A stretch of 64,000 nucleotides of DNA, taken from positions 1 through 64,000 of IMG/VR virus record IMGVR_UViG_3300009095_000011. One strand, 5' to 3'. Below, in pieces: positions 31,322 through 48,619 of this stretch. A model generated the notes under the pieces. That model was not told where the DNA came from. It worked only from the letters and a program-made list of their open reading frames with translations, and did no database searches. How positions within the stretch are numbered: position 1 is the first letter of the stretch; every line of letters begins with the position of its first letter. The translations under genes and the position numbers were made by a program. The stretch comes from a virus (taxonomy: Duplodnaviria; Caudoviricetes).

Positions 31322-31436
31322 CTTTTTTATTTTAGTTTACACTATAAATATACAACTTATATTTGATATATGCAAATGTTTATTTAAGTTGTATTTGCAA
31401 ATCCTTAAATATTTAATTAAAACTTAAATATAAAGT

Positions 31437-31485
31437 ATTGAAAATCAAATATTTAAAAACGGTTGTTTATATATAGTAGTTATCG
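31437..31485 (+). other. attI-like site of cassette array B
   Basis: ATTGAAAATCAA...TTATATATAGTAGTTA matches ATTCATAATCAA...TTATATATAATAGTTA next to the integrase. Confidence 0.65.
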
Positions 31486-31493
31486 GTAATTAG

Positions 31494-31706
31494 TTAGCCC
31501 ACATTAAACTCATAATCACATTTTCTACACCAAACATGATTTCCATTTCTTGTGAAGTTTTCTTCGCCTGATTTGCAATGTGGGCAAACTAACTTTCGCT
31601 CCGCACCGCTAACGGCAAATAAATCCAATAGCTGTTCGGATGCTTCCGTAACAGTTATCTGCCCATCATTTAGCTGTGTGCATATTTTGTAAATTTGTTC
31701 TTTCAT
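31494..31706 (-). CDS. Cassette B1 zinc-ribbon protein
   Basis: CPHC...CRKC; ATG lies in the attC-like loop. Confidence 0.65.
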   Translation of the reverse strand: MKEQIYKICTQLNDGQITVTEASEQLLDLFAVSGAERKLVCPHCKSGEENFTRNGNHVWCRKCDYEFNVG

Positions 31707-31739
31707 GTCGCTACTGTATTTATTTGCAAAACGTTATAA
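31607..31739 (+). repeat. attC-like site B1
   Basis: CGCTAAC-GGCAAATAAATCCAATAGC...GCTACTGTATTTATTTGC-AAAAC-GTTATAA. Confidence 0.75.
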
Positions 31740-31746
31740 GCAAGTG

Positions 31747-32544
31747 CTACCTTTCGTTTCCAAAGAGCGTTCCTGCTTGTAAATCTTTTTCTTTTCTTTT
31801 TTCTCCCACCCTTTTTAAAGCAATTTCATAATGGTCTTTTACTAATTCACTACCAATGTAATCACATTCATTTTCAATACAACTTAATTGTGTAGTTCCT
31901 ATTCCAGTAAAAGGTTCATAAATCAAACTACCTTTTGGAAAGTAAATATTTATCAGTTGATTTACCAAATCTTGTGAAAATGATGCTTTTAATTGACATT
32001 GGTATCCATCATTATTTCTTGCTTCAATATAATTCACATAGTTTTTGTAAAACTTTTGTCCTGTTTTCTCATTTACTTTACTCACTTCCTTATTGGTCTT
32101 GAATGTATGTAAATGTTCTTTTTTTACAAAAACATAAATCAATTCAGTAATCCTACTTAATTTGGTTGGAGAAGTCTGAAATGGTATTGCGTTTGGTTTC
32201 TTCCAACAAATAATATCAGCAATAGTTAAATCAGTTTCATTGTGAATTTTAGCAACCAATAATGTTGGTAGAATAGGATTTTCTTTTGCATAAGATATGT
32301 TGTAGCAAATTACACCAGTATCATTTATTACTCTTGAAAATTCTTTAAATTCATTTGTTCTAACTTCAAGATAATCATTCTCACTCAAACCATCTAATTC
32401 AGAATATCCATTATTGTAATAACAATCACTTCTTTCTGTATTAATGTTATATGGTGGTGATGTAATTATCCCATCAATAGATTTATCATAAAGTCTTTTC
32501 AAGGTAATCTTACAATCTTCGTTATAAATTATATTTCGTTTCAT
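31747..32544 (-). CDS. Cassette B2 DNA amino-methyltransferase (beta class, probably N4-C)
   Basis: TSPPY catalytic motif precedes EPFTGIGTT SAM motif. Confidence 0.88.
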   Translation of the reverse strand: MKRNIIYNEDCKITLKRLYDKSIDGIITSPPYNINTERSDCYYNNGYSELDGLSENDYLEVRTNEFKEFSRVINDTGVICYNISYAKENPILPTLLVAKIHNETDLTIADIICWKKPNAIPFQTSPTKLSRITELIYVFVKKEHLHTFKTNKEVSKVNEKTGQKFYKNYVNYIEARNNDGYQCQLKASFSQDLVNQLINIYFPKGSLIYEPFTGIGTTQLSCIENECDYIGSELVKDHYEIALKRVGEKRKEKDLQAGTLFGNER

Positions 32545-32640
32545 TATTCAATTTTTGTTTTTTACCACCGCACAAAAAAGAAAAGAAAAGAAAAAGGTTA
32601 GTCTTTCGATTCAAGTTCTGTGCTATAATACCGCACCAGC

Positions 32641-32771
32641 TTATAACAGCGTGTATAAAAAATGGCGGGTTCTCGGTTAATTTAAAGTTTTATAATTCTA
32701 ATTAAGTTCTGCGTTTTCTGAAAGTTTTGGAGTTCTAATCCGCCACTTCTTATACACGCAAAACGTTAGTT
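32641..32771 (+). repeat. attC-like site B2
   Basis: TTATAAC-A-GCGTGTATAAAAAATGGCGG...CCGCCACTTCTTATACACGC-AAAAC-GTTAGTT. Confidence 0.8.
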
Positions 32772-33044
32772 TCCATTTGGATAAGCAGCATTACCATCTT
32801 TTAAAGACCAGTGCCATCCATCATTCATCGTGTGTTTACGTGGTTTTCTATAAGCCTTTTGTCCGTTACTTAAATATGCCAATGTCTTAGACACATCTAC
32901 AACTTTCACAGCTTCCATCCTGTAATTATGATTTAGTACACCATGATATTTACGAACAAAAACCACGTCACCAATTTCTAAAAAACGGCAACTAACACCC
33001 GCTATAGTGCATGGCTGTTCGTTTTTTTCTGATATTGTATCCAT
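32766..33044 (-). CDS. Cassette B3 hypothetical protein
   Basis: Starts inside attC B3; its TAA stop is the TTA of the GTTA core. Confidence 0.6.
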   Translation of the reverse strand: MDTISEKNEQPCTIAGVSCRFLEIGDVVFVRKYHGVLNHNYRMEAVKVVDVSKTLAYLSNGQKAYRKPRKHTMNDGWHWSLKDGNAAYPNGN

Positions 33045-33111
33045 AATTTAAAGTTTATTTACTGTTTGGGTGCGTTGTTGAAAGCCACGCACCATAGCTT
33101 TTACGTTGTAG
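32990..33111 (+). repeat. attC-like site B3
   Basis: AACTAAC-ACCC-GCTATAGTGCATGGCT...AGCCACGCACCATAGC-TTTTAC-GTTGTAG. Confidence 0.8.
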
Positions 33112-33120
33112 GTAATAAAC

Positions 33121-33330
33121 CTACTCATATACTCGTAACACAAAAGTTACAGATTTCTTACACCTGTCCTCAGCCATCCATTCTCCATCCTCAGTTAAAT
33201 AGCTTTCATCTGTATTCTCAAAATAATTAGTATACAGTAACTTTGGGATTAAATCATCTCCGTCAGCCAGATTGTACACCTTACCTTTTGTGTAACTTTC
33301 TTTTATCTCTTTAATTAATTTCTTTGCCAT
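33121..33330 (-). CDS. Cassette B4 hypothetical protein
   Basis: 69-aa ORF between GTTGTAGGTA and TACCTACAAC. Confidence 0.6.
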   Translation of the reverse strand: MAKKLIKEIKESYTKGKVYNLADGDDLIPKLLYTNYFENTDESYLTEDGEWMAEDRCKKSVTFVLRVYE

Positions 33331-33370
33331 GTTATCAAGTTTTCGTTTTCAAATCCGTAGGCTTACATAC

Positions 33371-33426
33371 CTACAACACACGCTAAAACGCCATACAAGT
33401 ACAGGCGTTTAGCTACATCGTTAGTA
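33371..33426 (+). repeat. attC-like site B4 (short form)
   Basis: CTACAAC-ACAC-GCTAAAACGCC...GGCGTTTAGC-TACATC-GTTAGTA. Confidence 0.75.
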
Positions 33427-33430
33427 GTCA

Positions 33431-33682
33431 TTACTCATCATCTTCAGGATAAATAGACACGCCTTTTCTTTCACAGGGAGTTTTGCCACAATATTTACAA
33501 TAGCCTTCAGGCAACGAACCGCTAACATCGGCTAAATCCAATGCTTTGTTTCGTTTCAATTCATCAATTCCCCTTCTTACATATTTCTCTACATCAATAC
33601 CTTCGCTTTCAAGATAGGCTGTAGCTCCTTCGGAAGTATCAATATCAAATCCATTTACTATAGTCATAATTTTCGTTTTCAA
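33431..33682 (-). CDS. Cassette B5 hypothetical protein
   Basis: Most of the ORF lies in the attC B5 loop; ALDLADVSGS is the translated left arm. Confidence 0.6.
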   Translation of the reverse strand: MKTKIMTIVNGFDIDTSEGATAYLESEGIDVEKYVRRGIDELKRNKALDLADVSGSLPEGYCKYCGKTPCERKGVSIYPEDDE

Positions 33683-33714
33683 ATTCGCACTGGTTTAGTC
33701 GCGGCACGTTATAT
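33520..33714 (+). repeat. attC-like site B5 with expanded coding loop
   Basis: CGCTAAC-AT-CGGCTAAATCCAATGC...GCACTGGTTTAGTCG-CGGCAC-GTTATAT. Confidence 0.7.
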
Positions 33715-33724
33715 TTGCGAACCG

Positions 33725-34243
33725 TTATTTCCCTCTCGCATCCCAACATAACTGATCTACCATCTCATTCCATTGATTTCCTGCATGACCACGAACCCAC
33801 TTGAAGGTAACGTTTGGCAAGGACAATTTGAGAGAATTGAGATACTGCCACAATTGTTGGTTTGCTATTGGTTTTCCTGATGTACTGTACCATTTCTGAT
33901 CAATCCATTGTTTGAGCCATAAATTAAGCCCTGTGATACAATATTTACTATCACTTAATACAATCACCTTATCAGTGATGTTATTGTCTCTGAGCCACTG
34001 TAAACCCTTTGTAATAGCTGTTAATTCCATGATGTTTGATGTGACGTTGTGTGCATCTCCATGATCGAAATGAATAAGGTCATCATCTTTAATTACAACG
34101 AAGGCCCATGCACCATATTTATGATGCTTTGATTTTGGGTTATTGGAGCAGCCACCGTCTGTGTAGATGTAGATCATCTTCCACAAATTAACATTAATAC
34201 TCTTATTAATATAAACCCAATAACTTTCTTTAAAGAAATCCAA
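33725..34243 (-). CDS. rnhA: Ribonuclease HI
   Basis: YTDGGC, TSNIMELTA, SDSKY, WVRGHAG..WNEMVD; true start probably MIYIY. Confidence 0.92.
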   Translation of the reverse strand: MDFFKESYWVYINKSINVNLWKMIYIYTDGGCSNNPKSKHHKYGAWAFVVIKDDDLIHFDHGDAHNVTSNIMELTAITKGLQWLRDNNITDKVIVLSDSKYCITGLNLWLKQWIDQKWYSTSGKPIANQQLWQYLNSLKLSLPNVTFKWVRGHAGNQWNEMVDQLCWDARGK

Positions 34244-34928
34244 AAGAACAAAATTGACAAATGGATTGATTCTTTAAATATGTGAAACCAGAAGATTATT
34301 TTTTGCTTTTGAACCATTCGTATAATCCGACTAATGCAAAGATAATTATTGCTCCTGCGAATGATAAGATTACTTGTGTCATTACTGTAAATTTAAGTTA
34401 AAAATTTTATTATTAATATTGACTTTTATATACCAAGTGTAAACTATATTATCACTATAGGTCATAAAGTCAATGAATAATCTGATTCTCTTTTCTTTAT
34501 TTGATATTGATTTGATGATTTTCATCATTTTTTCAAATAAGTTTTATCAATAATTCGTTTATTTATTGCTTTAAGGTTATCAACATACAAAGGAAAGGTA
34601 TTGAGAATAGCTATCTGCTCTCGCTTAAGTTGCAATTGTCGTTGCATTGCTAATTCAATTCGGTTTATGAGTTGAATGGTTGATTGTGAGGTCATGATTT
34701 TACAAATACTTTTTTAATGTGCAACCTTGTACTATCTTTCCCTGGCTTATCGAAGTAATCTCTGATATATTCAACAGCCTCTTCGTAGGTGTCTTTGACT
34801 TCCCATTGTTTGAATACTTCGATCATCATCTGCTCTATTCCAGAATCAAAAATACATTCAGTGGATAATTCTCCGATTATGAATTGCTCTTTCATCTCTA
34901 TAACTTTTAGTTAAACATTTATTACTCT

Positions 34929-34960
34929 GTAAATATAATCATTGTATTTATAAGTTGCAA
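34929..34960 (-). promoter_or_regulatory. Bacteroidota-type promoter
   Basis: TTGCA-N18-TATATTTAC. Confidence 0.6.
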
Positions 34961-35118
34961 CTATTATTATATATATTTTATATAATATTTAATATAATAT
35001 ACTTCTTTTCCCTTTGTATTTAATATATTATATATAAATAATATCCTTTTTTAAGTTATATATAAACTTGACCTGTATGGTTTGCAAGGCAAAGCAAAAC
35101 ATACAAATAAAGGTCTGA

Positions 35119-35931
35119 TCACACTTTGTGGGATTTGCCATTTATGTGGTTAAGTTTATTGTCGTTGAAAAAAGACAAAGGAGAGGTTAGTAGTGTATTG
35201 CATAAACGCATGTGAATATTTACCATACCTTTCTTTTTTTTATCAAATATATAGAAAGTTTTGGGATTAAGTCTGCTAACATTATCATTAAGGTAGGTAG
35301 TGATATGCATTTTATCTACCATGATGCTATTATTTTGCACAGACATTAAACCTTGCTTTCTTAGTTTTGATTGAATTTTACAAGCTGCCATTCTCGTTTT
35401 CAATCCTAATCGATTAGCCATAGCACGTTGAGAAATTTGATAACCGCCCTCTGAATAAGCCCTGCAAGGTTTGTTATCTCGTTTATCAATGTAAAAAAGC
35501 CTCTGTTCTAATCGATATTGATCAAAATGATATATGACTTCAAGTAATTTGTTTTTGCTATTAATTAAGTCATGAGGTATTTTTATTATTTCATTTGCAT
35601 TTTTATATCCCCTTCCACTTCTCTTAGGTTCGAATCCTAATTTTTGCCATAGTTTATCATAGGAAAGCAATTGATAGCCAACGTGTTTATTGTTTTTATC
35701 ATACACAATAATGGCTATTTCATTATCTACCATTGATTTAAATCGTTCTCTAATGGTAGCCTTATTGATATTAAGATGGCAGGAGATTTGTTTTAGGTAG
35801 TTTTTTTTATAGAAGTATCCAGAATCACAGAAAGATTTTAATTGCATGAAAAAAAGATAGTCATGCTTTAAGCCTGCTTTGGAAGCTTTCTCAATAGTTC
35901 CTTCGAGATATTTAATGGGATTGGATCTCAA
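35119..35931 (-). CDS. Basic protein with two winged-HTH-like regions (possible replication initiator)
   Basis: ISCHLNINKATIRERF and ISQRAMANRLGL...LRKQGL; AT-rich tract downstream. Confidence 0.4.
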   Translation of the reverse strand: MRSNPIKYLEGTIEKASKAGLKHDYLFFMQLKSFCDSGYFYKKNYLKQISCHLNINKATIRERFKSMVDNEIAIIVYDKNNKHVGYQLLSYDKLWQKLGFEPKRSGRGYKNANEIIKIPHDLINSKNKLLEVIYHFDQYRLEQRLFYIDKRDNKPCRAYSEGGYQISQRAMANRLGLKTRMAACKIQSKLRKQGLMSVQNNSIMVDKMHITTYLNDNVSRLNPKTFYIFDKKKKGMVNIHMRLCNTLLTSPLSFFNDNKLNHINGKSHKV

Positions 35932-37713
35932 CTATATATAAAAGAAAAAGACCAGACTATTGCAGGATTATCTGGCCTTTTTGATTATTGGATTAAAAAA
36001 CTTAATTCAATTAATCATCCATAATCCTGCGAACTAAAAAATTAATTGAATTTTGTGTGAAATTAATATAATTGAAATTAAGATGCAAGTTTTTAGGTAA
36101 TTATTTTTTAATTTTCTATTTTTTGACATTCAGTAATATCAAAGGTTTTATAAAATCCTCTTCCAGACAATACTAGCGTCAATTGTGTGGAATAATAACC
36201 ATTATTATATCCATATCCTGGAATTTTAATAGAATGTCCATTAATTGGAATTAACTCTATTCCATAATCTTCTATTTTTTTAAAGAAAAAATCATTTGTT
36301 AAATTAAATTCTAATCCTTCAAAATCACTTAATTCTAAATCATCGAGTAATAAATAATGATTTTCGCAACAATCTGATATATGTTCTGAATATAACTTTA
36401 TTTCATTTTCAAATTCAATATATTCAGAATTTACTTTTATTACTTTTAATTTTTCCATTTTACTTATTTTAAACGTTTATAATCAATTTAATTACTTTCT
36501 GGATAGATGACACTACTCACAATGAGAAAGTGTCTCAGATCAAGGGAAAATAGCCTTAAAACAAAATCTTGACAAGAAAGATTAAGGCAGCAATGATCAT
36601 ACACCAAATAAAGGTTGAAATGCTGACTTGCACTTGATCTTTTCGTTTACCTTGGTAGTTCATTATTATAATGGTTTACTATTATACCATTTGATAAACT
36701 CAACAATTGATTTGTGCGCTCCTTCAATATGTATTTCAGTAACAGCACAATGTATATCTACTTCTAATGAATCACCATAGCAGCAATGGTTTTTACTTGG
36801 TCTTTCAATTCGATCCAGATAGTCTTTTATTTTTCTATAAACAGGCATGAGCCAATCCCATGAGGAATGAAATTTTAAATGATTTACATGCAACCCCTCT
36901 GTTTCTTCAAAATCTTGATATTGATGAATGCGAACTTTAGAATTTTGTTCAACAATACCATTTTTTCTTAATCCATATAAAATTCCCATAAATTCGGCAA
37001 TTAATTTATTGCCCTCAAGTATATCGTTTTGCTCTAATGTTTTCATTTTCACTTAGTTTTAGTTACATAATATTCTGTTACTGGCACCACCTTACCTCCT
37101 ATGTATTCAAGTTTATTAATCTCATGCTTATTTGATACAGTAGCATTTAAGTTATGAGTACAAGAGGTGAGGGATAGGTAGGTAAGAATTATCACAAGGA
37201 TGACAATTGCTATTTTTCTATGAGTTGACATTAGACTGTTCTTTTAAGTATTCCTAGTTTAGTACATTTATTGTAGTCAGCAACTATTCTTAATTGAATA
37301 TTTGGCTCAATTTCAATTGTTTTGATTGTTAGGCTATCAAGGATAGTTGCTTTGCTACAAATAGCTTCCATTTTATCAGCGATTTGTCTTAATTCATCTG
37401 GCGTTGTGAAGTACCAGATAGTTTTAGTTGAGTCAATCATTGTTGTATGGGTTGTTAATATTTAATAAGATTATAGTTTTTATCAAGCTCTATGGATTTT
37501 GTCCATTCCTTGAAGGCTTTTAATTCAGGTTTTCTATTTAAAAATTCTTCTGGATCTTCTCCAAATTTTCTACCTAAAATATGAGAAGCTAGTGCCATTT
37601 TAATATCTGATATTACATTCATCATATTGGTTTTATTGCCATTTGCTTGTTCTAATCTTTTTTTAAATCTTTCTATTCTTGTCATTTCTTTATTCTTTAG
37701 GTTAAACATCTAT

Positions 37714-37746
37714 GTAAATATAAGATTTATATTTAATATATGCAAA
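37714..37746 (-). promoter_or_regulatory. Bacteroidota-type promoter
   Basis: TTTGCA-N18-TATATTTAC. Confidence 0.65.
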
Positions 37747-37817
37747 TGTTTATATAAAAAATAAGGTGTGATAAATTAATACCACACCTTACGCAAATAT
37801 AGATGATTAACAGAGAA

Positions 37818-38615
37818 TTAATTAAGATGTCGAAAGTGAACGAAGTCAGCTTTAGATTTGTAATTGAAGATTTCTTCAAACAAGGACAGATATTGTTTAA
37901 CGTCAGTGCATTTAATCAGTTTACCATGCTGCATTGAAACTTTATGAAGCATTTTCTCATGGTCATAATCCTCATTCTTCATCAGTCTGCTGATTGCATT
38001 CATGAATGACTTACTTTTATAATGTGGAAAATATTGACCGTAATCATTGATTGCAGAAATAATTTCCTGAGCCTGACCGAGAGATTTAACTTTAAATTCT
38101 CCTTTCTCAAATTGTTTGATCAATTTTGATGATGGTTGAGTTGAGCCGCCATTAAGTACTCCAATGGCGGCATAGATGCTGATATCATTATGTTGTGCAA
38201 AATCTCTGACAATTTTATAATCTTCAAAATTTTTACTGACATAAAAATCAAGATAGTCATTGAGTTTCCAATCGTCGGCAGAGCTATTTATACGAGCTAT
38301 GTCGCCTTCATCGAATCTTTCGCTGATCTTATAATAGATAGCTACTCCAAGCTTCTTAGCGGCCTCAAAACGATGCTGTCCATCTAAGATCCATAATTCG
38401 CGATTCACTGTCATTGGGTAATCGTGAAGGAGGTTTTTTTGCTTAATGCTCTCTACTAATTCATCAACATGTTTCCAGTTGATTCTGCGATTTGTTCTAT
38501 AATAATTGAACAAAGCATAGTTCTTAGTAGATTTAATTTGTAATTCATCCTTTTTAGGAGTGTAATTAAGATTAGAATTTTCTTTTCTTGTTTGTTGTTT
38601 TTCTACAGTTTTCAT
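37818..38615 (-). CDS. ParB/Srx-like domain protein
   Basis: NRRIN..HV..L...I, ILDGQHRFEA. Confidence 0.8.
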   Translation of the reverse strand: MKTVEKQQTRKENSNLNYTPKKDELQIKSTKNYALFNYYRTNRRINWKHVDELVESIKQKNLLHDYPMTVNRELWILDGQHRFEAAKKLGVAIYYKISERFDEGDIARINSSADDWKLNDYLDFYVSKNFEDYKIVRDFAQHNDISIYAAIGVLNGGSTQPSSKLIKQFEKGEFKVKSLGQAQEIISAINDYGQYFPHYKSKSFMNAISRLMKNEDYDHEKMLHKVSMQHGKLIKCTDVKQYLSLFEEIFNYKSKADFVHFRHLN

Positions 38616-38951
38616 AATACAATTATAATTTGGTTGTTAATTATTGAACTGTAAATATAACATTAATATTTCATATTTGTTATATCAAACAAGAAAAAAA
38701 ATAAAAATATTTTTATAAATGCGTAGAAATGAGAAAATTAAAGCATTCTTCAAGAATAAAATTATGCGCATAGCTATCATCAAATGGATAACTAAGTACT
38801 GCTTTGAAGCATGTTACATAGCCTAAATAAAAATTATAAACATCCTTCCATTCACTTTCCTGAATAACTATTTCGGGATTATGGTGTAAAACAAGAAAAG
38901 AGAGCTTTGATTTTAGCTCTCCTTTAGATAAGATTTTGATTTGGGGGGATT

Positions 38952-39269
38952 TCATTTTTTAAATTGTTCTCTGATTTTTTTATCCATTTCTTTACTTTTC
39001 TCCTGAACTCCGTTTTTAATACTATCCTGCTTTGATCGTTTACTGAAAGCTTGTTGACGTTCATCTTTACTTTTTAATCCTCCTTTATCATAAGTACCTC
39101 TTCCGAAAGTTAGCAAAGAAGGGATTGAAAGTTGGCGTTTCATCTTTCTTCCACAATAGCAAGTACATTGAGCAATAGTAGCTTCACTTGGTTGATCACA
39201 TTCGCTCATAGAGTGAGTGATTTCTTTATATTCATCGCAGTTGATACAGTAATAATTGTATGTGGGCAT
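38952..39269 (-). CDS. FmdB-like zinc ribbon protein
   Basis: MPTYNYYCINC...CYCGRKMKR. Confidence 0.7.
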   Translation of the reverse strand: MPTYNYYCINCDEYKEITHSMSECDQPSEATIAQCTCYCGRKMKRQLSIPSLLTFGRGTYDKGGLKSKDERQQAFSKRSKQDSIKNGVQEKSKEMDKKIREQFKK

Positions 39270-39362
39270 ATTTATTTGTTTTTAAAAAGCATAATTTTAT
39301 ATATAAGTTTAAACGCGACAAATAAAGCTAAAACGAATGAAATTAAATTAATAATCATAAGT

Positions 39363-39899
39363 TTAATATTTCATTTTACAATAAAAAGCCATTAGTGCAG
39401 CATCAACAAGGCCATCATGAGGCACTTTGCTTCGTTCAGTAGCAAGGAAAGTTTCATTAGGGAACAATCTCTTGGCTGCAATAAGAGATGTTGCCTTAGT
39501 GTCTATTTTATATTTAGGTTCGCCGGATTTGAGTTTCTTTCCAGTATTGATCTTAATAGGAGATACGCCTCTCCAAGCTTCTTTTTGCCATTCTTTAGGA
39601 GCTACTTTAATAAAGGGGATTCGATTGGCAGTAAGTAATCCCCTCAAAATGCCATTAATAAGACCAAATTTGAAATTGGCAGCGGCACCACTTTTAGGAA
39701 CTGCATGAACATCTTCCAGAACACACATACAATCATATACTTCACCATCGTCGCCATATCTTAATTCAAACAATATTTTATCTAGCAGATCATCATCTAT
39801 CTCATTCTTAATTGTAGGAATTACATGAAGTGTTAATTCATTATCTTCAATAATTACTATACCGCCCTTAGCTCCAGGGTCAATTCCAATATATTTCAT
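39363..39899 (-). CDS. RuvC-like Holliday junction resolvase
   Basis: IGIDPGAKG, VLEDV, FKFG, PKEWQK, HDGLVDAALMA. Confidence 0.85.
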   Translation of the reverse strand: MKYIGIDPGAKGGIVIIEDNELTLHVIPTIKNEIDDDLLDKILFELRYGDDGEVYDCMCVLEDVHAVPKSGAAANFKFGLINGILRGLLTANRIPFIKVAPKEWQKEAWRGVSPIKINTGKKLKSGEPKYKIDTKATSLIAAKRLFPNETFLATERSKVPHDGLVDAALMAFYCKMKY

Positions 39900-40382
39900 A
39901 TTTAGTCTATTATATATATTTTTTCTTTAAAATTAAATCCCAATAACATATTTTTTCCTCTTGTCCATTACGATAACTATGCCAAACACAAGGAAAATGC
40001 TTTCTTGCTTGCTTGATTCTTTGCTTAGTAGTTTTTGATTTATCTGTATTTCTTGTATAATGCAACCAGCATTCCCAATAATGATCTAAATGAGGTGCAA
40101 CGAATGTAATTGCTATCTGCCATTTAAAAAATACAAATGACCAAATGGGGCTCCATTCAAATCTATAATCAGCATCATTCCATTTGGTTTTCCATCCTAA
40201 ATCAACGAAGTCAAATCCTATTTTCTTATCAACAAATTTACGTACTCCTGCCTTATTCTTAACAATTTTGCGAGGATAGTAATATGGAGTACCTATAGCT
40301 ATTCTGCCTATATAAAAATCCAATTTCAATGGCTTAAATGGAGAGAAGTATGTTTTTAAGAAATGCATAATAGGTAAATTTA

Positions 40383-42233: not shown

Positions 42234-42811
42234 TATGATTTATTGGATTTAAGACTAAATGCTGCCCTTACAAGACTAAGATATGTTTCATCTCTAATAT
42301 GATATCCTTTTCGGTGCCAATGTGGTATTCTCATTAAACAATCTCTAACAACTCTTAGATCATCAAATGAAGTAGGTATTAATTGTTGTTGATCAAAACT
42401 TACTCTATCAATGTGAATTGTATTTGCTTCCAATTCTTTTTTGTATCCAATCTTTCCATTTTGTATTATAAATTTAGATTGGCTTATTTTAAATTCAAAT
42501 TGAGTTGTGGGAACTTTAAGCAATTGAATAATAATTCCGTTAAAATTATAAGTCTTAGCTGTTTTAGTTTCATACATAAAAACAAAATCTTTATTATCGT
42601 TTATGAAATTGCTGAAACTTAAATCAGTTGTTTCAAAATCATAATCTTTAGGATCTCTATCATCTAATATATCAACAACTGCACCACCAATTAGGTGAGC
42701 TTCAATATAGCTATATTTTTTATTTTCATTTGCTTTAGCAATAATCTCCATAAACTGTTTAATGACAGGATGAGATTCTAATTTTTCAATCATTTGCAAT
42801 TCAGTCATCAT
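42233..42811 (-). CDS. Nucleotidyltransferase (CCA-adding/poly(A) polymerase head-like domain)
   Basis: LIGGAVVDIL...PKDYDF. Confidence 0.65.
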   Translation of the reverse strand: MMTELQMIEKLESHPVIKQFMEIIAKANENKKYSYIEAHLIGGAVVDILDDRDPKDYDFETTDLSFSNFINDNKDFVFMYETKTAKTYNFNGIIIQLLKVPTTQFEFKISQSKFIIQNGKIGYKKELEANTIHIDRVSFDQQQLIPTSFDDLRVVRDCLMRIPHWHRKGYHIRDETYLSLVRAAFSLKSNKS

Positions 42812-43833
42812 ATCTCTTTCAATTTTTCAAGTCCATATTTATTATCAGTAATTTTATTATCGCTACAGAACGATTTAAAAGCGTCTACAATCGATTTTTT
42901 ATTATGGGTGATGTTCTTACTCATTTCCTTATCAGATAATGGCTTATCGACGGTATTATGGCTTAAATCAAAGGAGATACCAGCTTGAGTTAACAAGGAA
43001 GTGTCAAATGACTTGACTTTGGCTTGATCACCCTTGATTTTGATTCGGATATTATTGCCACTTTGTTTTTCTTGTTGAAGTTGTAGGATTTCTTTTGAGG
43101 TAAGTTGTTCAACATTGATTTCATATTTGATGTACAAAGGAAAGTGAGATTGAATAAATTCAATTGATCCATCATTATAAAGAATTGTAAAACCCTTTTG
43201 ATCATCCTCTCCAAAGTTGGCCTGATATGTACTTCCGATATAATGAATTGGGAATTGATCAAAACTCTGTCTATTATGGAAATGACCTACTAAAGTTTTA
43301 TCAAATTGTGCAAATGCATTTGCTGGCACTACATCTTGTTGCACTGATCCATCATTATTATTTACCCCGTTGATTGCAACATGGGTTAGGAGGATGTTTG
43401 TTTCTTTAGTATCAATATTGATATCTTGCAATCTTTGCATATAACTTCCAGATTCTTTGAAGAATGGCAGAAAATGTACATTAATGTTGCCAAAATGTAC
43501 ATTTGAATAATCTCGTATAACTACAAAGATAGTTGAATTGAATACATCAAGAAAGCTATCCTCACTATCATAATCTGTTCGATCGTGATTACCGGCTATG
43601 ATGGCCACCATGATCTTATTATCTTTGAACTTATCAATTATCCTCTGAGTAGCCTTTAATACAGATAATGGCTGTCCAGTACGTGAATTAAACCAATCCC
43701 CACCATGAAGGATTGTGTCTATTTTCAATTCCTTGCATTTAGCAATAGCCTGATCAAAGATGTTTTCTACAAGAGAAATATTGTCAGGCTTTAGGTGTGT
43801 ATCTGTTAGTATGAGTGCTATGGGTTTCTTCAT
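42808..43833 (-). CDS. sbcD: SbcD/Mre11-like nuclease
   Basis: TDTHL, GGDWF, GNHD, GHFH, YIGS..Q.NFGE. Confidence 0.9.
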   Translation of the reverse strand: MKKPIALILTDTHLKPDNISLVENIFDQAIAKCKELKIDTILHGGDWFNSRTGQPLSVLKATQRIIDKFKDNKIMVAIIAGNHDRTDYDSEDSFLDVFNSTIFVVIRDYSNVHFGNINVHFLPFFKESGSYMQRLQDINIDTKETNILLTHVAINGVNNNDGSVQQDVVPANAFAQFDKTLVGHFHNRQSFDQFPIHYIGSTYQANFGEDDQKGFTILYNDGSIEFIQSHFPLYIKYEINVEQLTSKEILQLQQEKQSGNNIRIKIKGDQAKVKSFDTSLLTQAGISFDLSHNTVDKPLSDKEMSKNITHNKKSIVDAFKSFCSDNKITDNKYGLEKLKEI

Positions 43834-44035
43834 GTTCTCTTTTGATTGCTTGTAAATTATCTTCTATGTATTCAAACACTTCTCGGTAAGTTTTATAAGT
43901 GTAAGATTTAGGGCTTATGTTTTCTTTAAGCCACAGTAAATGATGCGCAGGAACGTAAATCATTTCAGTTCCCTTATGTTTACCAAATGGCATTATATCG
44001 GTGTCTTTCATAGCACAGTAATTAAGAATTGACAA
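43784..44035 (-). CDS. Small MPFGKHKG-motif protein (DUF3820-like)
   Basis: MPFGKHKG...VP..HLLWL. Confidence 0.65.
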   Translation of the reverse strand: MSILNYCAMKDTDIMPFGKHKGTEMIYVPAHHLLWLKENISPKSYTYKTYREVFEYIEDNLQAIKREHEETHSTHTNRYTPKA

Positions 44036-44138
44036 ACTTCTTTACTCTATTGGGAATGCGAGGTAATTCACGAAATTCTGCAAGAAGATGTTGATCTGTG
44101 AGATCATGAGGCAGGATGCCTATATTGATGCGAGTCAT
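44022..44138 (-). pseudogene. denV: Truncated pyrimidine-dimer DNA glycosylase (T4 endonuclease V-like)
   Basis: Hand translation MTRINIGILPHDLTDQHLLAEFRELPRIPNRVKKFVNS* resembles the T4 DenV N-terminus; stops after 38 aa. Confidence 0.75.
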
Positions 44139-44197
44139 GTTACAATTTTTGTTTACGATTTATGATGTAAATGTAAGGATTATATTTCGCAAAGTCA

Positions 44198-44444
44198 GTG
44201 AACTACACATCCACACTTCGTGATGAATGTGCTTCGAGTTTCATAGCTTGTGCTTACTGCTTCCGAAGAAGTTAGGAGTCTTATTTTTGCTCCACTCGTG
44301 TACTCGCAAGTCCCTTACGAGGTTTTAATGTCTTATACTGACAATGCAAATATATAACAAATATTTTAATCTACCAAATTATTTTGTATTTTTTGTCGCT
44401 TACATCCAAACCACTAAAGATGGTTTGGTTTTACGCTCCGTCAT
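44198..44444 (-). mobile_element. 247-bp non-autonomous IS200/IS605-type element (no ORF)
   Basis: Left end ATGACGGAGCGTAAAACC + hairpin, right end hairpin + GTAGTTCAC; TTTAT 5' of the left end; internal promoter. Confidence 0.75.
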
Positions 44445-44446
44445 AT

Positions 44447-44474
44447 AAAAATGGGGGAGAAATATTCTCCCCCA
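44447..44474 (-). terminator. Rho-independent terminator of the SSB gene
   Basis: GGGGAGAA-loop-TCTCCCC followed by T-run. Confidence 0.7.
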
Positions 44475-44504
44475 TCTCTAACAACCATATAACCTAAACA
44501 ACAA

Positions 44505-45665
44505 CTATTTACCTTTATTCATCTTAGCTTTTAATGCAGCTAATTTTTGCTTCATTTCGTCAGGAGAAAGATTTTTTGATGGATAATTCTGCACAGGATC
44601 AGCTTCGACAGCAACCTTTTCAACTTCTGGCTCAGATTCATCCTGCTGCATTTCTTTGATCCACCTATCATCCTTACCATTAGATTGATTTACAGGATGA
44701 TCAGCTTTAGGTTGACCACCTTTTTCAAATGGCAAGCCATTATCATCAGTATCATCGCTATCTTTTGATTCAGGAGCATCAGGATACAAGGCAGCAAGTT
44801 CTTCGCATACATTTAGGAAATCATCATCTGCAAATACTCCAAGTGCATTTTGTTGATCGTATAGTTCAAGTCCCTCAATTGCTTTCTCAAAATCTTTAGA
44901 AGTATAAGAATTAACAAATAAGGATTCTAAAGAATCCATTTCGGCAAACTTTTCAAGATCGCTATCTGAAAGAGGTGCTGAAATTGGAACAAAATCTTTA
45001 GTAACGAAACTAACCTTATATACATCTTGAGGCTTTACATCATCGCCAGTGTTATATACAATCTTTACCAAACGTCCTGTATCTGGATCAGTGAACGGAT
45101 CAACTTGCATAGGTTGATCTGAATCTTCACTCATACCCAATTCATCTTGTTTGTATTTGATAGAGGGTTTTACTTCTAAACGACCAAAAGAAGTTCCTTT
45201 GGAGTTTTTAACATTAGCATATCCTACCCAAGAGTACACAGGATTAATTCCTGTTTTCCAGTGGTACAACGAATCAATCTTTTTCTTGATTTCAGACGCA
45301 TCTGTTTCATCTCTTTGAATGATTCTTTTTGCTGCTGCTATATATTCCTCAACAATATCTTTAGGTGTGCCAGCATGAATACGAGCATTAAACACAGGTC
45401 GCTTTTTTAATTCAACCTTTTTCTTACCCTTATCGTCAGTTGTTTCTATATTAAAAGGCAACCAACTGATACATTTTTGATAAATATAGCTCAGAGTATT
45501 GGGGTGTGGTGGATACCACCTTACAACATTATCTCCCTTCTCAAGATTGATATATCCTGGACGAGTGTTGTTGTTTTTAGGTCTAAGAGCTTCTGCTTCT
45601 TGTTTTTGTTTTTGTAGGTCAGCTACTTTAGCTGCCTGAAATTTTGACCGATCAAATTTTGCCAT
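44505..45665 (-). CDS. Single-stranded DNA-binding protein (gp32-like)
   Basis: GDNVVRWYPP, DPFTDPDTGR, long acidic tail with DDNGLPF; lies in the replication/recombination module. Confidence 0.65.
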   Translation of the reverse strand: MAKFDRSKFQAAKVADLQKQKQEAEALRPKNNNTRPGYINLEKGDNVVRWYPPHPNTLSYIYQKCISWLPFNIETTDDKGKKKVELKKRPVFNARIHAGTPKDIVEEYIAAAKRIIQRDETDASEIKKKIDSLYHWKTGINPVYSWVGYANVKNSKGTSFGRLEVKPSIKYKQDELGMSEDSDQPMQVDPFTDPDTGRLVKIVYNTGDDVKPQDVYKVSFVTKDFVPISAPLSDSDLEKFAEMDSLESLFVNSYTSKDFEKAIEGLELYDQQNALGVFADDDFLNVCEELAALYPDAPESKDSDDTDDNGLPFEKGGQPKADHPVNQSNGKDDRWIKEMQQDESEPEVEKVAVEADPVQNYPSKNLSPDEMKQKLAALKAKMNKGK

Positions 45666-46045
45666 TGTTTAATTTAATTGTTTTTGCTTTGTTTATATAT
45701 ACCTTATTGATTGAATAAGTTCTTAATTATTATTGATTACAACGAATTGATTTGCATTGAATGTGATGGGCTTGTCTTTGATGAAGATCGACTGAATCTC
45801 TTCAAATTCAAAGTGAAGGATTCCATTAATGACATGCTGTCTTTTGATTGTGTAATTGTTGAATAATCGTGGGAGGTCTGGTTTTAATGCCTTGATGATT
45901 CGTTTATCTAATTGATGAGAGAAATCATCATTAATACAAAAAACCTTAATTTTAACAGTTTTGTTTACAATTTCCATAATAGCCTTATTAGTTTGAAAAA
46001 TTTTGATAAAAATAATAGATCGTGATTTAAAACACAAGCAAAATA

Positions 46046-46624
46046 TTAATTTTTAATTTCATAACCTGCTTCATTTGGCGATGGAATATACACATTGTGC
46101 TCTATTGCAGCCCAATCTCTTATTGATTCAATATATTGACTAAATTCATAAGTGTCTTTGTCAGTGGTTGTTAATGGAATATTTCGAGTTTGAGTGATTG
46201 TAATAAACTTACCATACTTAGGCCAATTGTCAATATCAATCACTGTATATTTTGGTAACAAAGGGAGCTTATTGGAACTGATTAGCATATCATTGATATC
46301 TTTTTCTTCGAGATATTGTGCAGGTTTTTCAAATTCAAATATACTATCATCATAAACCTCAAAGTATTCGGTTTTTATTTCAATCTTTCTGCTATTGAAT
46401 TGTAGTTTGAGAATCTCATGCATCTCATCTGTATTATATCCAAAATAATCACTAAGGATTTTAACTACCACTGCAAAATAGTAACTGTTCTGTTCCCTTG
46501 ATCTATTTCTTCGATACTTCTTTATAGAAAACCAGTAAGCAATATCTTCAAGTGTTTCAAGATGTTTGAGTACTTTATCTCTGTGATGAGGATTAGACCA
46601 GTCTATAAGGATATCAAGGTTCAT
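46046..46624 (-). CDS. NinB/Orf-like recombination protein
   Basis: [32 protein letters not shown]....V.IP.P. Confidence 0.7.
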
Positions 46625-47433
46625 ATTGGTAATGGAATTTTATTGAGCAAATTAGTACTTACATGGGTGTATATTTCTGTAGTCTTACTTGAATTGTGTC
46701 CTAATAACTTCTGAATTATCCTTATATCAGTTCCATTCTCTAACAATGAAGTTGCACTTGAATGTCTTAATTGATGAAAATGATATTGATTGCCCAAATA
46801 TTTCTTTATAATTTGATTACAAGAAGTGGATGAATATTGAAGACAATTTTGACCATTAAATAAATATTCTTTTGGTTTATATTGTTTATAATAGTCTCTA
46901 AGTAATTTAAGAATATTTTCACTTAATGGGACAACTCTATCTTTTCTACCCTTGGCATTTTTGATATTAATTATCATTCGCTTACTGTCAATATCCTTAA
47001 TTTTAAGATTGATTACCTCAGATACCCTAAGTCCTACAGAATATGCAAGCGAAATAATTGCTTTATGTTTAATGTTTTCAATCTTGGGAATCTTATCTAA
47101 AAGATATTTTTGATCGATTATTTGAGGTAATTTTTTCTCTTTCTTTGGTCTGGTAAATGAAACCTTATCATACTTTTTGTTTAAGCCAAACTTATATAAA
47201 AACCTAATGGCATTTATGACTTGATTTTGTTGAGAAATAGAGGAGAAATTGTATTGATCAAGATAGGATTGGAAATCGCTTGCAACTAAATGTTGATAAT
47301 ACTTACCTGTACTTTGAATAAACTTATCTATATAGTGAATATAGATACTTATCGTTCTTTCTGAGTAATTAAGATATTTAAGCTTTCGTTCGCAAATCTT
47401 TAAAATATCTTCTTTTTTCTTATTCATAATCAA
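46621..47433 (-). CDS. Tyrosine recombinase (integron-integrase-like, no IntI-specific insertion visible)
   Basis: N-terminal SAM-like domain (YSERTISIY); catalytic GLRVSE, KGRKDR, HQLRH, LLGH, TEIY; ATG at 47427. Confidence 0.93.
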
Positions 47434-47470
47434 TAGTTTACAAGTTAAATCTTATATATAATAGTTAGGC
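47422..47470 (+). other. attI-like site of cassette array C
   Basis: GTTAGGC core at 47464 immediately upstream of the integrase start; motif shared with 31437-31485. Confidence 0.7.
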
Positions 47471-47480
47471 ACAATAAAAA

Positions 47481-47786
47481 TTATTCCTCTGGTGTATCTA
47501 ACATATATCTCCAATATTTAACGTCTGTAAAATCAGTGTACCAACTACCAGCACCTAAAATAAACCAATTATATTCGTGTTTGGGACTACCAGTTCTTTT
47601 TATCAACTGTAATTTTGCTGGAGTCCATATATCATCATAAAACACCAAAACATAATCACTTTCTCTTTTTTCTTCAACACTTCCTTCTCTTTTATCGCAT
47701 TCTGCAATTTCCCAAACTTCATTTCCTAGTTTTGGTATTTCATTAATTGTCAGTTTATAGTCCATAATTTTAAAAGTGCCTAACAA
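47481..47786 (-). CDS. Cassette C1 hypothetical protein
   Basis: ORF fills the cassette; likely start MDYKL; VKYWRY C-terminus. Confidence 0.6.
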   Translation of the reverse strand: MLGTFKIMDYKLTINEIPKLGNEVWEIAECDKREGSVEEKRESDYVLVFYDDIWTPAKLQLIKRTGSPKHEYNWFILGAGSWYTDFTDVKYWRYMLDTPEE

Positions 47787-47901
47787 AGTGTATAAGCAAT
47801 AGCCGTTAGACGTTTTAAACTATTGCAGTTGTTAATAATAATTTTTATTCTTCTAGTCAAGTTTTGTGTTCGGCTACTGCTCATACACTAAACCGTTGTG
47901 C
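47778..47901 (+). repeat. attC-like site C1
   Basis: GCCTAAC-AA-AGTGTATAAGCAATAGCCG...CGGCTACTGCTCATACACT-AAACC-GTTGTGC. Confidence 0.85.
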
Positions 47902-47907
47902 GCAATA

Positions 47908-48177
47908 CTACTCCGCTGGCTCATACGTTTTCACAAATATATCAGGCTTGCAGGGGTAAAATTCACCGTGTACGCCCTTTATAATCCAATCGCCTTTACG
48001 GGCTAAGTGGTCGCCTTCAAGAGTTTCAATGTAAAATGTTTGCGTTCCCATTTCTCCGGGCTTCCACTTGGTTAATCCCATATTCATAATGTGCTGCCAG
48101 CTTTCATCTGTGCCATCCCATTGAGCAGCTTCAATTACAACAGGTTTCTTTCTAAATTTCATATTCGTACTGCGCAC
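47908..48177 (-). CDS. Cassette C2 conserved phage protein (RKKPVVIEA...[11 protein letters not shown] family)
   Basis: Motif set widespread in phages; likely start MKFRKK. Confidence 0.75.
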
Positions 48178-48301
48178 AACACAAAATAAAATGCAGTGGG
48201 TTGTACGTCTTATTTACACTGCTTGCCTGTCTGTTAGTTTCGGTCAGTCGGACAGCTCAGGCTTATCTATCCCACCGACATTTTATTCAAATTCGTTGTA
48301 G
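48174..48301 (+). repeat. attC-like site C2
   Basis: GCACAAC-ACAA-AATAAAATGCAGTGGG...CCCACCGACATTTTATT-CAAATTC-GTTGTAG. Confidence 0.8.
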
Positions 48302-48305
48302 GCAA

Positions 48306-48587
48306 TTAGTCTGCCCTTTCACCACTTCCAAAACAAGTAAGACAGGGCAATATTTCATTAGTACCTTTACCACTAAAACCTTCGCCTTCACAATTCGGGC
48401 AAACTAACTGTTCGCTTTGCCCTACAACATTAGATAAAACCAATAATGCTTGGTCTATCTGCCGTTCTTCTTCTTGTAATTCAGACGCTATTTCAGCTAT
48501 ATACTGATCTACTTCTTTTGGCATTTTCTGAAACTTTTTATCTATTTCAGACTTTCGTTTTATAAGGATGTTTATTACTTTCTTCAT
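48306..48587 (-). CDS. Cassette C3 protein with DnaJ-type CxxCxGxG zinc finger
   Basis: CPNCEGEG...CLTCFGSG; the N-terminal half is encoded in the attC loop and left arm. Confidence 0.65.
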   Translation of the reverse strand: MKKVINILIKRKSEIDKKFQKMPKEVDQYIAEIASELQEEERQIDQALLVLSNVVGQSEQLVCPNCEGEGFSGKGTNEILPCLTCFGSGERAD

Positions 48588-48619
48588 CGCATTACTGTTT
48601 TTATCATTATACGTTGTGC
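48422..48619 (+). repeat. attC-like site C3 with expanded coding loop
   Basis: CTACAAC-ATTA-GATAAAACCAATAATGC...GCATTACTGTTTTTATC-ATTATAC-GTTGTGC. Confidence 0.75.

What the first reader, a model, noticed from the sequence alone, without database searches (positions are those of the whole stretch)
31494..48619. Proteins encoded inside recombination hairpins: attC loops as N-terminal coding modules
Seen: in cassettes B1, B3, B5 and C3 the start codon lies inside the attC-like site. The frame runs through the left arm and AAC core in the same phase each time (GTT = Val), giving a shared peptide scar: LLDLFAVSG, PCTIAGVSC, ALDLADVSG, LLVLSNVVG. Sites B5 and C3 are expanded to about 195 bp, against about 125-130 bp for non-coding ones. 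In B3 the stop codon is the GTTA core itself. Inference: the sites are under dual coding and structural selection, and the system may create new genes from recombination sites.
Basis: partly seen in the sequence, partly recalled or inferred. Interest (0 to 1): 0.85.

Follow-up and report, generated by a model that had tools for sequence, protein, structure and literature searches.

The report
Phage genes starting inside recombination hairpins
In this phage, small swappable genes begin inside the folded DNA hairpins that serve as their recombination sites. Related phages carry the same protein front halves and back halves in many different pairings, joined in frame at the site's GTT core, so the site appears to double as a protein-shuffling joint.

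Summary
The window (a complete 114-kb phage genome, genes on the minus strand) has ten AAC...GTT hairpin sites in integron-like cassette arrays. One array ends at a hairpin-less half-site next to a 270-aa Xer-type recombinase.

In 80 related phage loci:
- 119 of 317 sites carry such through-ORFs, in phases 83/12/24.
- Genes that start after the site show random phase (55/63/58).
- Loop ATG leaders in phase 0 number 108, against 23 expected.
- The non-coding left arm covaries with the coding right arm in 14 of 18 pairs.
- Loop codons of the long site give dN/dS of 0.15-0.37.

Relatives of B1, B5 and "C3" show each N-module joined to many unrelated C-parts, and the reverse, with the junction at the GTT codon. 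DNA break points fall on the AAC and GTT cores. For B3 the hairpin travels with its own gene.

Translation, and catalysis by the recombinase, are inferred, not shown. I found no paper describing this. Earlier AI notes of this scan report the same phenomenon in other phage genomes.

The parts
31611..31735 (-). Hairpin site B1 (125 nt, tAACG...GTTA). The loop holds the ATG (31706) and the right arm encodes LLDLFAV.
   Evidence: Arm duplex -16.9 kcal/mol, z -7.5. Whole-site fold z -4.1.
31494..31706 (-). ORF B1, 70 aa: N-module of 32 aa up to Val32 (GTT), then a CxxC...CxxC zinc-ribbon cargo with no start codon of its own.
   Evidence: In the representative library, 22 relatives match only the N-part (ending at residue 33-45), about 6 match only the C-part, and about 15 match full length.
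32645..32767 (-). Hairpin site B2 (123 nt), with no ORF start in its loop. It precedes the N6/N4 DNA methyltransferase cassette (31747-32544).
   Evidence: z -7.7.
32994..33107 (-). Hairpin site B3 (114 nt). The loop holds the ATG (33044) and the right arm encodes PCTIAGV.
   Evidence: z -6.9. The same hairpin plus gene sits in two other contexts, with homology ending at AAC on both sides.
32766..33044 (-). ORF B3, 92 aa. A 17-aa leader precedes a conserved 75-aa body that starts at G-V-S-C. The TAA stop is part of the next site's TAAC core.
33375..33422 (-). Short hairpin site B4 (about 48 nt between cores), followed by ORF 33121-33330, which starts after the site.
   Evidence: z -4.2.
33521..33710 (-). 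Site B5 (190 nt between cores). It holds the ATG at 33667 and 49 codons up to the GTT. This is the weakest hairpin.
   Evidence: Arm duplex -11.3 kcal/mol, z -3.1. The minimum-energy fold does not form the long stem. The core is placed by the module junction in relatives.
33431..33667 (-). ORF B5, 78 aa: N-module up to Val49, then a Cys-rich cargo without its own start codon.
   Evidence: The same N-module occurs with two other C-parts, and the same C-part occurs with another N-module.
31465..31486 (-). Hairpin-less half-site ccgatAAC|TACTATATATAAAC at the end of array B. It matches the recombinase-proximal site consensus, but no recombinase gene follows.
   Evidence: compared with the consensus of 53 loci.
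48837..48959 (-). Hairpin site C1 (123 nt), the first site of array C. It has no ORF start in the loop, and the ORF starting at ATG 48821 follows.
   Evidence: z -6.0.
48426..48615 (-). The ATG at 48587 directly follows the left arm. The loop encodes a two-helix N-module and the right arm encodes ALLVLSNV.
   Evidence: z -5.8. dN/dS of loop codons 0.15-0.37. AlphaFold2 model: helices 2-20 and 24-58, pLDDT 82-95 over residues 1-50.
48306..48587 (-). ORF of 93 aa: a 53-aa N-module, Val54 (GTT), then a 39-aa CxxCxGxG-type zinc-finger cargo without its own start codon.
48178..48297 (-). Hairpin site C3 (120 nt), non-coding loop. The ORF starting at ATG 48162 follows.
   Evidence: (z -3.1).
47782..47897 (-). 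Hairpin site C4 (116 nt), non-coding loop. The ORF starting at ATG 47765 follows.
   Evidence: (z -3.4).
47451..47472 (-). attI-like half-site gtgccTAAC|TATTATATATAAG, about 35 nt before the recombinase ATG. Its left part is the reverse complement of the 9 nt after the GTT of C4.
   Evidence: The same layout occurs in 53 of 63 related loci.
46621..47427 (-). Xer-type tyrosine recombinase (SAM-like N-domain plus catalytic domain), co-oriented with the cassettes.
27598..27646 (-). Isolated short hairpin site A (49 nt) with the loop motif TCGTTTTAATGC.
   Evidence: z -5.0.

Best explanation
The region belongs to an integron-like gene-cassette system of phages. Each cassette gene is preceded by an imperfect hairpin site of this form: yAAC, a 4-5 nt spacer, left arm, variable loop, right arm, GTT. 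The array ends in a hairpin-less half-site beside a Xer-type recombinase gene.

In more than a third of sites the variable loop carries the translation start and the first 12-50 codons of the gene. The right arm and the GTT core are then read as protein, with GTT as Val, mostly in one phase. Only the right arm is coding, so the non-coding left arm is free to compensate and pairing is kept.

Two break points are used. Exchange at the AAC core moves hairpin plus gene as one unit; this is how cassettes enter beside the recombinase. Exchange at the GTT core re-pairs a hairpin, with its N-terminal module, with a different cargo. Many cargos, such as the small Cys-rich zinc-ribbon tails of B1, B5 and 48306-48587, have no start codon and depend on the hairpin for one. 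A shared phase therefore keeps the pieces interchangeable, much as intron phase does in exon shuffling.

Shown: the anatomy, the frame statistics, the covariation, purifying selection on one loop, and module re-pairing with break points on the cores.

Inferred: that the loop parts are translated, that this recombinase catalyses both exchanges (perhaps by using either folded strand), and that the products are accessory, possibly anti-defence, proteins.
For: System.
- In 80 loci (1.2 Mb) around relatives of the recombinase, there are 365 AACG...GTTR hairpins on the recombinase strand, against 40 on the other strand and 15 in shuffles.
- They pile up 0-5 kb upstream of the gene and are nearly absent downstream.
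- The 8 nt after GTT of site n are complementary to the 8 nt before AAC of site n+1 in 64% of 242 units (at least 6 of 8), against 5% within one hairpin and 9% for non-cognate pairs.
- In 53 of 63 loci the array ends in e'-AAC|TATyATATATA, 30-58 nt before the recombinase start.
- Polaribacter phage Freya_10 differs from Freya_1 by 4.9 kb inserted directly after that AAC. The insert begins with a hairpin and ends with e'-AAC.

Coding.
- 119 of 317 sites have an ORF running from an ATG inside the site to at least 30 codons past GTT, in phases 83/12/24.
- Genes starting after the site have random phase, 55/63/58.
- ATG leaders of at least 12 codons in phase 0 number 108, against 23.4 +/- 4.4 in shuffled sites. 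84 of those 108 run on for at least 30 codons, against 31 of 209 sites without a leader (Fisher 1e-28).
- Loop codons have G at positions 1/2/3 of .27/.11/.13, like genes (.29/.17/.14) and unlike chance ORFs (.22/.15/.20).
- dN/dS is 0.15-0.37.
- There is no in-frame ATG, GTG or TTG early in the B1, B5 or 48306-48587 cargos.
- GenBank annotators also start CDS Freya10_10 inside a hairpin.

Structure.
- 14 of 18 pairs are compensatory.

Shuffling.
- See alignments A2, A3 and A4.
- One leader cluster of 41 members is joined to 40 unrelated C-part clusters.
- DNA blocks: GTT...AAC only for the zinc-finger cargo; AAC...GTT only for its N-module hairpin.
- Contig break points in two metagenome runs fall at 47776-80, 47897, 48294, 48429-30 and 48615.
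Against: - There is no expression or peptide evidence.
- The B5 hairpin is weak.
- Short leaders are hypervariable, and one conserved arm is read in two frames in two homologues. For these the peptide itself seems unimportant.
- For B3 and for the Freya isolates, the hairpin travels with its gene. GTT exchange may therefore be rare or have another cause.
- The module pairings come partly from predicted-protein databases, which list only in-frame forms.
- The phase bias shrinks when counted by leader cluster (33/11/16), and phase 1 is disfavoured anyway because GTTAG or GTTAA then gives a stop.
- Among the 80 loci, cargo genes are so diverse that no cargo-level homology block could be counted.
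- The recombinase lacks the IntI-specific insert that binds the extrahelical bases of attC.
Confidence: 0.7

Rival explanations
1. The hairpin always moves with its own gene, with crossover only at AAC. The shared N-termini reflect common descent of a hairpin family. The alternative N/C pairings arise from rare illegitimate or short-homology recombination, for example through the phage's own NinB/Orf-like and SbcCD-like functions, and not from the recombinase acting at GTT.
For: - B3 hairpin plus gene is one homology block in three contexts.
- Freya isolates differ by hairpin-first units.
- Several N-module relatives share 20-24 nt past GTT (VVGQSEQ) before they diverge, a stretch that could serve as short homology.
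- A NinB/Orf-like gene sits next to the recombinase.
Against: - For the zinc-finger cargo, and for L092, the homology ends on the GTT itself, with unrelated sequence on the other side. That leaves only 3-8 nt of shared sequence.
- At least seven contigs in two runs break at 48429-48430.
- The junction is at the Val codon in three independent gene families of this window.
Confidence: 0.2
2. The loop parts are not translated. The true starts lie at or after the core, and the open frame through the arm is a by-product of site sequence.
For: - In 33 of 119 through-ORFs an in-frame ATG lies within 10 codons after GTT, often directly (GTTATG).
- Leaders are poorly conserved.
- 24 phase-0 leader ORFs stop soon after GTT and look like chance ORFs.
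Against: - 27 through-ORFs have no downstream in-frame ATG at all, and 36 have one only beyond codon 25.
- The B1, B5 and 48306-48587 cargos lack any early start codon.
- Leaders occur 4.6 times more often than expected, and leader presence is coupled to a long ORF.
- Loop codons show coding periodicity.
- dN/dS is 0.15-0.37.
- A confident two-helix fold is predicted for the loop-encoded part.
Confidence: 0.06
3. The hairpins are RNA-level elements between genes (terminators, processing sites or translational operators), not DNA recombination sites.
For: - They lie on the transcribed strand between co-oriented genes, and would enclose the start codon in an mRNA loop.
Against: - The flanks of each unit are complementary to each other, not to the hairpin they touch.
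- Arrays end at a conserved half-site beside a recombinase gene.
- Isolates differ by whole units cut at the core.
- There is no Rfam match.
Confidence: 0.03

Closest known systems
Integrons (IntI, attI, attC cassette arrays), including attC clusters without an integrase (CALINs) reported in virulent phages (Qi et al. 2023, PMC9892861)
   Same: - Imperfect hairpin sites with inverse AAC/GTT cores and a variable loop.
- Site lengths of 48-190 nt.
- Units whose two ends are complementary to each other.
- A simple site beside a tyrosine recombinase gene where units enter.
- Very diverse small cargo, including an orphan N6/N4 DNA methyltransferase.
   Different: - The recombinase is Xer-like. It is 270 aa, lacks the roughly 48-aa IntI-specific insert, and scores below the NCBIfam integron-integrase cut-off.
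- It is co-oriented with the cassettes.
- Genes face the other way relative to the site, so the hairpin lies at the 5' end of its gene.
- Loops carry start codons and N-terminal coding sequence.
- The GTT core is a codon.
ORF-11 / ORF-18 of attI1 and short ORFs inside attC sites (review PMC8876359)
   Same: An ORF with its own start lies in a recombination site and crosses the crossover point. It serves expression of cassettes that lack translation signals.
   Different: Those ORFs end at a stop in or near the cassette core and act by translational coupling. Here the frame continues as the gene itself, giving a fused N-terminus, and in some sites the loop encodes a folded domain.
Promoter-early stem-loops (PeSLs) and the shared capsid-targeting leader of internal-protein genes in T4-type phages (from my own knowledge, not checked here)
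   Same: Repeated stem-loop or leader sequences flank small accessory genes in hyperplastic regions and are thought to mediate modular exchange. In the second case, unrelated proteins share one short N-terminal leader.
   Different: Those exchanges are attributed to homologous recombination. No dedicated recombinase, core triplets or half-site beside a recombinase gene are involved.
Exon shuffling with phase-compatible introns in eukaryotes (analogy only)
   Same: Protein modules are re-paired at a fixed codon phase, so that any front half fits any back half.
   Different: The chemistry is wholly different. Here the exchange is DNA site-specific recombination at a 3-nt core in a virus, not RNA splicing.

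Membership tests
Integron (IntI / attI / attC) | Integrase of the IntI clade with the additional domain (about 35-50 aa, including helix I2) between catalytic patches | tested here: not met
   Alignment to VchIntIA (2A3V) splits into residues 21-182 and 219-259. That leaves 36 aa where IntI has 84. TIGR02249 scores 154 bits against a cut-off of 265. The best hit is XerA, also below its cut-off.
Integron (IntI / attI / attC) | attC-type site: imperfect inverted repeat with inverse cores (..AAC / GTT..), unpaired spacer or bulges and a variable terminal loop | tested here: met
   Ten sites in the window have arm duplex z of -3.1 to -7.7. All have yAACG on the left, GTTR on the right and a 4-5 nt asymmetric spacer. 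14 of 18 stem pairs are compensatory across 40 sites.
Integron (IntI / attI / attC) | Cassettes as discrete mobile units: the two ends of a unit match each other, not the site halves they abut | tested here: met
   64% of 242 units reach at least 6 of 8 complementary, against 5% and 9% in the controls. Freya_1 and Freya_10 differ by units cut at the core.
Integron (IntI / attI / attC) | attI: a simple, non-hairpin site next to the integrase gene where cassettes enter | tested here: met
   The half-site e'-AAC|TATyATATATA lies 30-58 nt before the recombinase start in 53 of 63 loci. In the window it is at 47451-47472. Insertion at it is seen in the Freya isolates.
Integron (IntI / attI / attC) | ORF lies upstream of its own attC, and the array is transcribed away from a divergent integrase gene | tested here: not met
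   The hairpin lies 5' of its gene and moves with it. The recombinase gene is co-oriented and downstream of the array.
Integron (IntI / attI / attC) | Recombination of the folded bottom strand with replicative resolution | not testable with these tools
   Only the break points can be seen, and both the AAC and GTT cores are used.
Xer-type tyrosine recombinases | SAM-like N-domain plus catalytic domain with the R..HxxR..Y residues, about 270-300 aa without extra domains | tested here: met
   Pfam Phage_int_SAM_4 plus Phage_integrase. XerA 4A8E matches at E 2e-37 over residues 15-264, with the LRVSE, HQLRHS and EIYTH motifs aligned.
attI1 ORF-11-type translational coupling | A short ORF starting in the site crosses the crossover point and ends at a stop in or near the cassette core | tested here: not met
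   The ORFs start in the site and cross the core, but 84 of 108 phase-0 leaders continue for at least 30 codons as the gene. Only one typical leader stops after 8 codons.

The most novel reading that the evidence does not exclude
A phage-encoded recombinase system that works as a prokaryotic analogue of exon shuffling. Hairpin sites carry start codons and N-terminal modules, cargos carry start-less C-terminal modules, and exchange at a core read as one Val codon in a fixed phase continually makes new small chimeric proteins. These may be used in the arms race with host defences: related arrays hold Acb2/Tad1-like and Sequestin-like genes.
Probability: 0.45. Interest if true: 0.9.

Novelty: new variant of a known kind. 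Interest (0 to 1): 0.8.

Why it matters
Integron sites are treated as non-coding DNA structures, and cassettes as self-contained genes. Here one arm and the loop of the site are protein-coding, and the crossover triplet is a codon. Comparative data show front and back halves of proteins re-paired at that codon.

If the recombinase does this, phages have a dedicated enzyme-driven way to build new proteins from modules, not just to reorder genes. It would also bear on how cassettes acquire expression signals, an open question for integrons.

Cultured relatives exist (Polaribacter phages Freya_1-10, Cellulophaga phage Ingeline), so the claim can be tested directly.

Tried and rejected
- Megablast of the region against GenBank phages gave no match. 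There were no Rfam families and no tRNAs.
- Pfam, PHROGs and NCBIfam gave no function for the four proteins. There were only weak zinc-ribbon and DnaJ CxxCxGxG hints, below cut-off.
- A systematic test of which hairpin travels with a cargo, among the 80 loci, failed. Cargos are too diverse: 44 homologous pairs, mostly duplicate contigs. No cargo-level BLAST blocks were found. One informative pair had break points unrelated to the sites.
- I first read the unit-end complementarity as proof of a crossover at GTT (classical polarity). I dropped this when the array ends and the Freya isolates showed entry at AAC.
- I then read the data as AAC-only exchange. I dropped that when the protein and DNA comparisons showed blocks ending at GTT.
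- A contig joint 48201>48827 in the source sample has only 28 nt on one side and lies in the similar right arms of C1 and C3. I do not count it.
- I considered a targeting or cleavage signal in the common leader. Nothing supports it; the leaders are low-complexity and variable.
- I ran no fold search on the two-helix model, because it would not be informative.

Full report
**What the window is.**
The window is the first 64 kb of a complete 114,226-nt virus record. It has about 31% G+C, and nearly all genes are on the minus strand. The stretch between the two arrays holds replication and recombination genes:
- RNase H
- an SbcCD-like pair
- a NinB/Orf-like protein
- ribonucleotide reductase
- an N6/N4 DNA methyltransferase
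- a 270-aa tyrosine recombinase at 46621-47427

**The observation.**
Read on the minus strand, each belongs to an ORF whose ATG lies between a yAACG motif and a GTTR motif. These motifs bound a long imperfect inverted repeat.

An energy scan of every AAC...GTT pair in the window ranks eight such sites on top (-14 to -21 kcal/mol, against -12 to -14.7 for the best pairs in shuffled sequence). A scan allowing shorter sites adds two of about 48 nt. With the cores held fixed and the arms shuffled, arm pairing has z from -3.1 (B5) to -7.7.

Whole-site folding is less decisive, and B5 does not form the long stem in its minimum-energy fold. I therefore treat B5 as the weakest hairpin.

The other details check out:
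- Site lengths are as described: 190 nt for B5 and for the site at 48426-48615, and 114-125 nt for the others.
- The stop codon of B3 is the TAA of the next TAAC core.

**The surrounding system.**
The recombinase has 210 relatives at 58-72% identity in IMG/VR. In 80 fetched loci (1.2 Mb):
- AACG...GTTR hairpins number 365 on the recombinase strand, 40 on the other strand and 15 in shuffles.
- They accumulate in the 5 kb upstream of the gene and are almost absent downstream.
- The 8 nt after GTT of one site are complementary to the 8 nt before AAC of the next site, that is, across the gene. They are not complementary within one hairpin (64% against 5% reach at least 6 of 8). The genes are thus discrete units with matching ends.
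- In 53 of 63 loci the array ends in a hairpin-less half-site, e'-AAC|TATyATATATA, 30-58 nt before the recombinase start. The window has it at 47451-47472, and a second copy without a recombinase closes the other array at 31465-31486.

Cultured relatives exist at 38-40% identity. Polaribacter phage Freya_10 differs from Freya_1 by 4.9 kb of small genes inserted directly after that AAC. The insert begins with a hairpin and ends with e'-AAC.

The layout is therefore that of an integron read on the other strand. The hairpin precedes its gene, and entry beside the recombinase uses the AAC core.

The enzyme is Xer-like. Its best solved match is XerA 4A8E, and it lacks the roughly 48 residues that distinguish integron integrases.

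The paper that describes the Freya and Ingeline phages calls the gene an integrase and mentions no cassettes (PMC8776804). attC clusters without an integrase have been reported in virulent phages (PMC9892861). My searches found no description of this system.

**Are the through-ORFs more than chance?**
Of 317 sites, 119 have an ORF running from an ATG inside the site to at least 30 codons beyond GTT. GTT is in phase 0 in 83, phase 1 in 12 and phase 2 in 24.

Genes that start after the site have random phase relative to GTT (55/63/58), so the bias is specific to through-ORFs.

ATG leaders of at least 12 codons open to GTT occur 108 times in phase 0, against 23.4 +/- 4.4 when the site interior is shuffled. 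The other phases give 46 and 41. A leader predicts that the frame stays open for at least 30 further codons: 84 of 108 against 31 of 209, Fisher 1e-28. The 24 exceptions mostly look like chance ORFs. Only one typical leader ends early.

Two points temper the phase bias. Phase 1 is partly excluded by stops (GTTAG, GTTAA). Counted by leader cluster, the bias is weaker, at 33/11/16.

**Evidence for coding.**
- Loop codons, with the arm excluded, have G at positions 1/2/3 of .27/.11/.13. This is close to cassette genes and unlike chance ORFs.
- For the 190-nt site at 48426-48615, four homologues give dN/dS of 0.15-0.37 over loop codons 2-43.
- AlphaFold2 predicts a confident two-helix hairpin for residues 2-58.
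- The cargos behind B1, B5 and this site have no usable start codon of their own.

By contrast, the 15-21-residue leader of B3 is hypervariable among homologues whose body is 58-98% identical from G-V-S-C onward. The conserved arm segment GGCCATGCAC is read in different frames in two homologues. Short leaders therefore look like a start ramp whose sequence is dictated by the DNA.

**Evidence for structure.**
In an alignment of 40 leader-type sites, the consensus fold pairs the non-coding left arm with the coding right arm through 18 pairs. Of these, 14 show compensatory double changes (also visible). The encoded peptide changes with them. It is resolved by letting the non-coding arm follow the coding one.

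**Module re-pairing.**
- *ORF 48306-48587.* Relatives fall into two sets. One keeps the N-module up to ...LLVLSN-V and carries at least 12 different Cys-rich tails. The other keeps the zinc-finger tail from V-V-G onward and carries at least 10 unrelated N-modules.
- *B5.* It shows the same pattern on a smaller scale.
- *B1.* In a library clustered at 50% identity, B1 has 22 relatives matching only residues 1 to 33-45, about six matching only the C-part, and about 15 matching full length.
- *DNA level.* The zinc-finger cargo is shared from GTT to e'-AAC only, with both neighbouring hairpins different. The N-module hairpin is shared from the left arm to the GTT only, with different cargo.
- *Metagenome contigs.* Contigs of two metagenome runs laid on the array break at 47776-80, 47897, 48294, 48429-30 (seven contigs) and 48615, which are the cores.
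- *The 80 loci.* One leader cluster of 41 members precedes 40 unrelated C-part clusters.

For B3 the hairpin and gene form one block in three different contexts, with both ends at AAC. Both cores therefore act as break points. AAC moves hairpin plus gene; GTT re-pairs hairpins and cargos.

**Interpretation.**
The best reading is that the variable loop of these sites has been used to house the translation start and N-terminus of the cassette gene. In addition, exchange at the GTT core, read as Val in a shared phase, lets N-terminal modules and start-less cargos be combined.

Translation itself, catalysis of both exchanges by the recombinase, and use of either folded strand are inferences. The main rival is AAC-only site-specific exchange with occasional short-homology recombination. 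It is not excluded, but it fits poorly with blocks that end on the 3-nt core.

**Relation to earlier notes of this scan.**
After my own tests I looked up earlier notes. The integron-like phage system, and genes starting inside its hairpins, have been noted several times on other genomes, with similar conclusions. One note on another genome concluded that no new fusions arise. My data for this genome disagree with that. These notes are unchecked AI leads and did not enter the evidence.

Noticed in passing
window 44020-44135 (-) and 44190-44350: A 38-codon ORF resembles the N-terminus of T4 endonuclease V (MTRINIGILPHDLTDQHLLAEFRELPR...) and ends early. Just upstream lies a GC-richer non-coding stretch that looks structured.
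   Followed up: no
window 31343-31387, 37713-37757, 38650-38679, also 30959-31026 and 34887-34954: A repeated intergenic motif (minus strand ...AAACATTTGCATATAT.AAATATAA...) sits in front of several genes. It may be a phage promoter. It is unrelated to the hairpin sites.
   Followed up: no
window 48960-48992 (-) and 27598-27646 (-); also L021, L022, L024, L043: Short hairpins share the loop TCGTTTTAATG. One (GTTGTGCA...TGCACCACAAC) directly abuts the first site of array C. The roughly 48-nt site class may therefore have a conserved loop.
   Followed up: no
L088 739-957 and 1083-1343: In a related metagenome contig, the genes next to a relative of ORF 48306-48587 hit Pfam Acb2_Tad1_hairpin and Sequestin. 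This suggests the arrays hold anti-defence genes.
   Followed up: no
MT732463-MT732472 (Polaribacter phages Freya_1 to Freya_10): Ten near-identical isolates differ in genome length by up to 4.9 kb, all upstream of the integrase. The Freya_1 record starts at the AAC half-site. Freya_6 shares an upstream unit with Freya_10 up to the AAC plus about 13 nt, then carries a different unit.
   Followed up: partly
window 47803-47873: Contigs in two runs carry the C4 hairpin arms with 69 nt of the loop missing. This is a short-loop variant of the same site.
   Followed up: no
window 48399-48406: A second break point lies about 24 nt after the GTT of site 48426-48615, inside a small inverted repeat GGGCAAA...TTTGCCC that contains AACAGTT. 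Many relatives share VVGQSEQ and diverge there.
   Followed up: partly
window 37818-38615 (-): A second 265-aa ORF, the same length as the methyltransferase cassette gene, has only a weak GmrSD_N hit (E 0.005).
   Followed up: no
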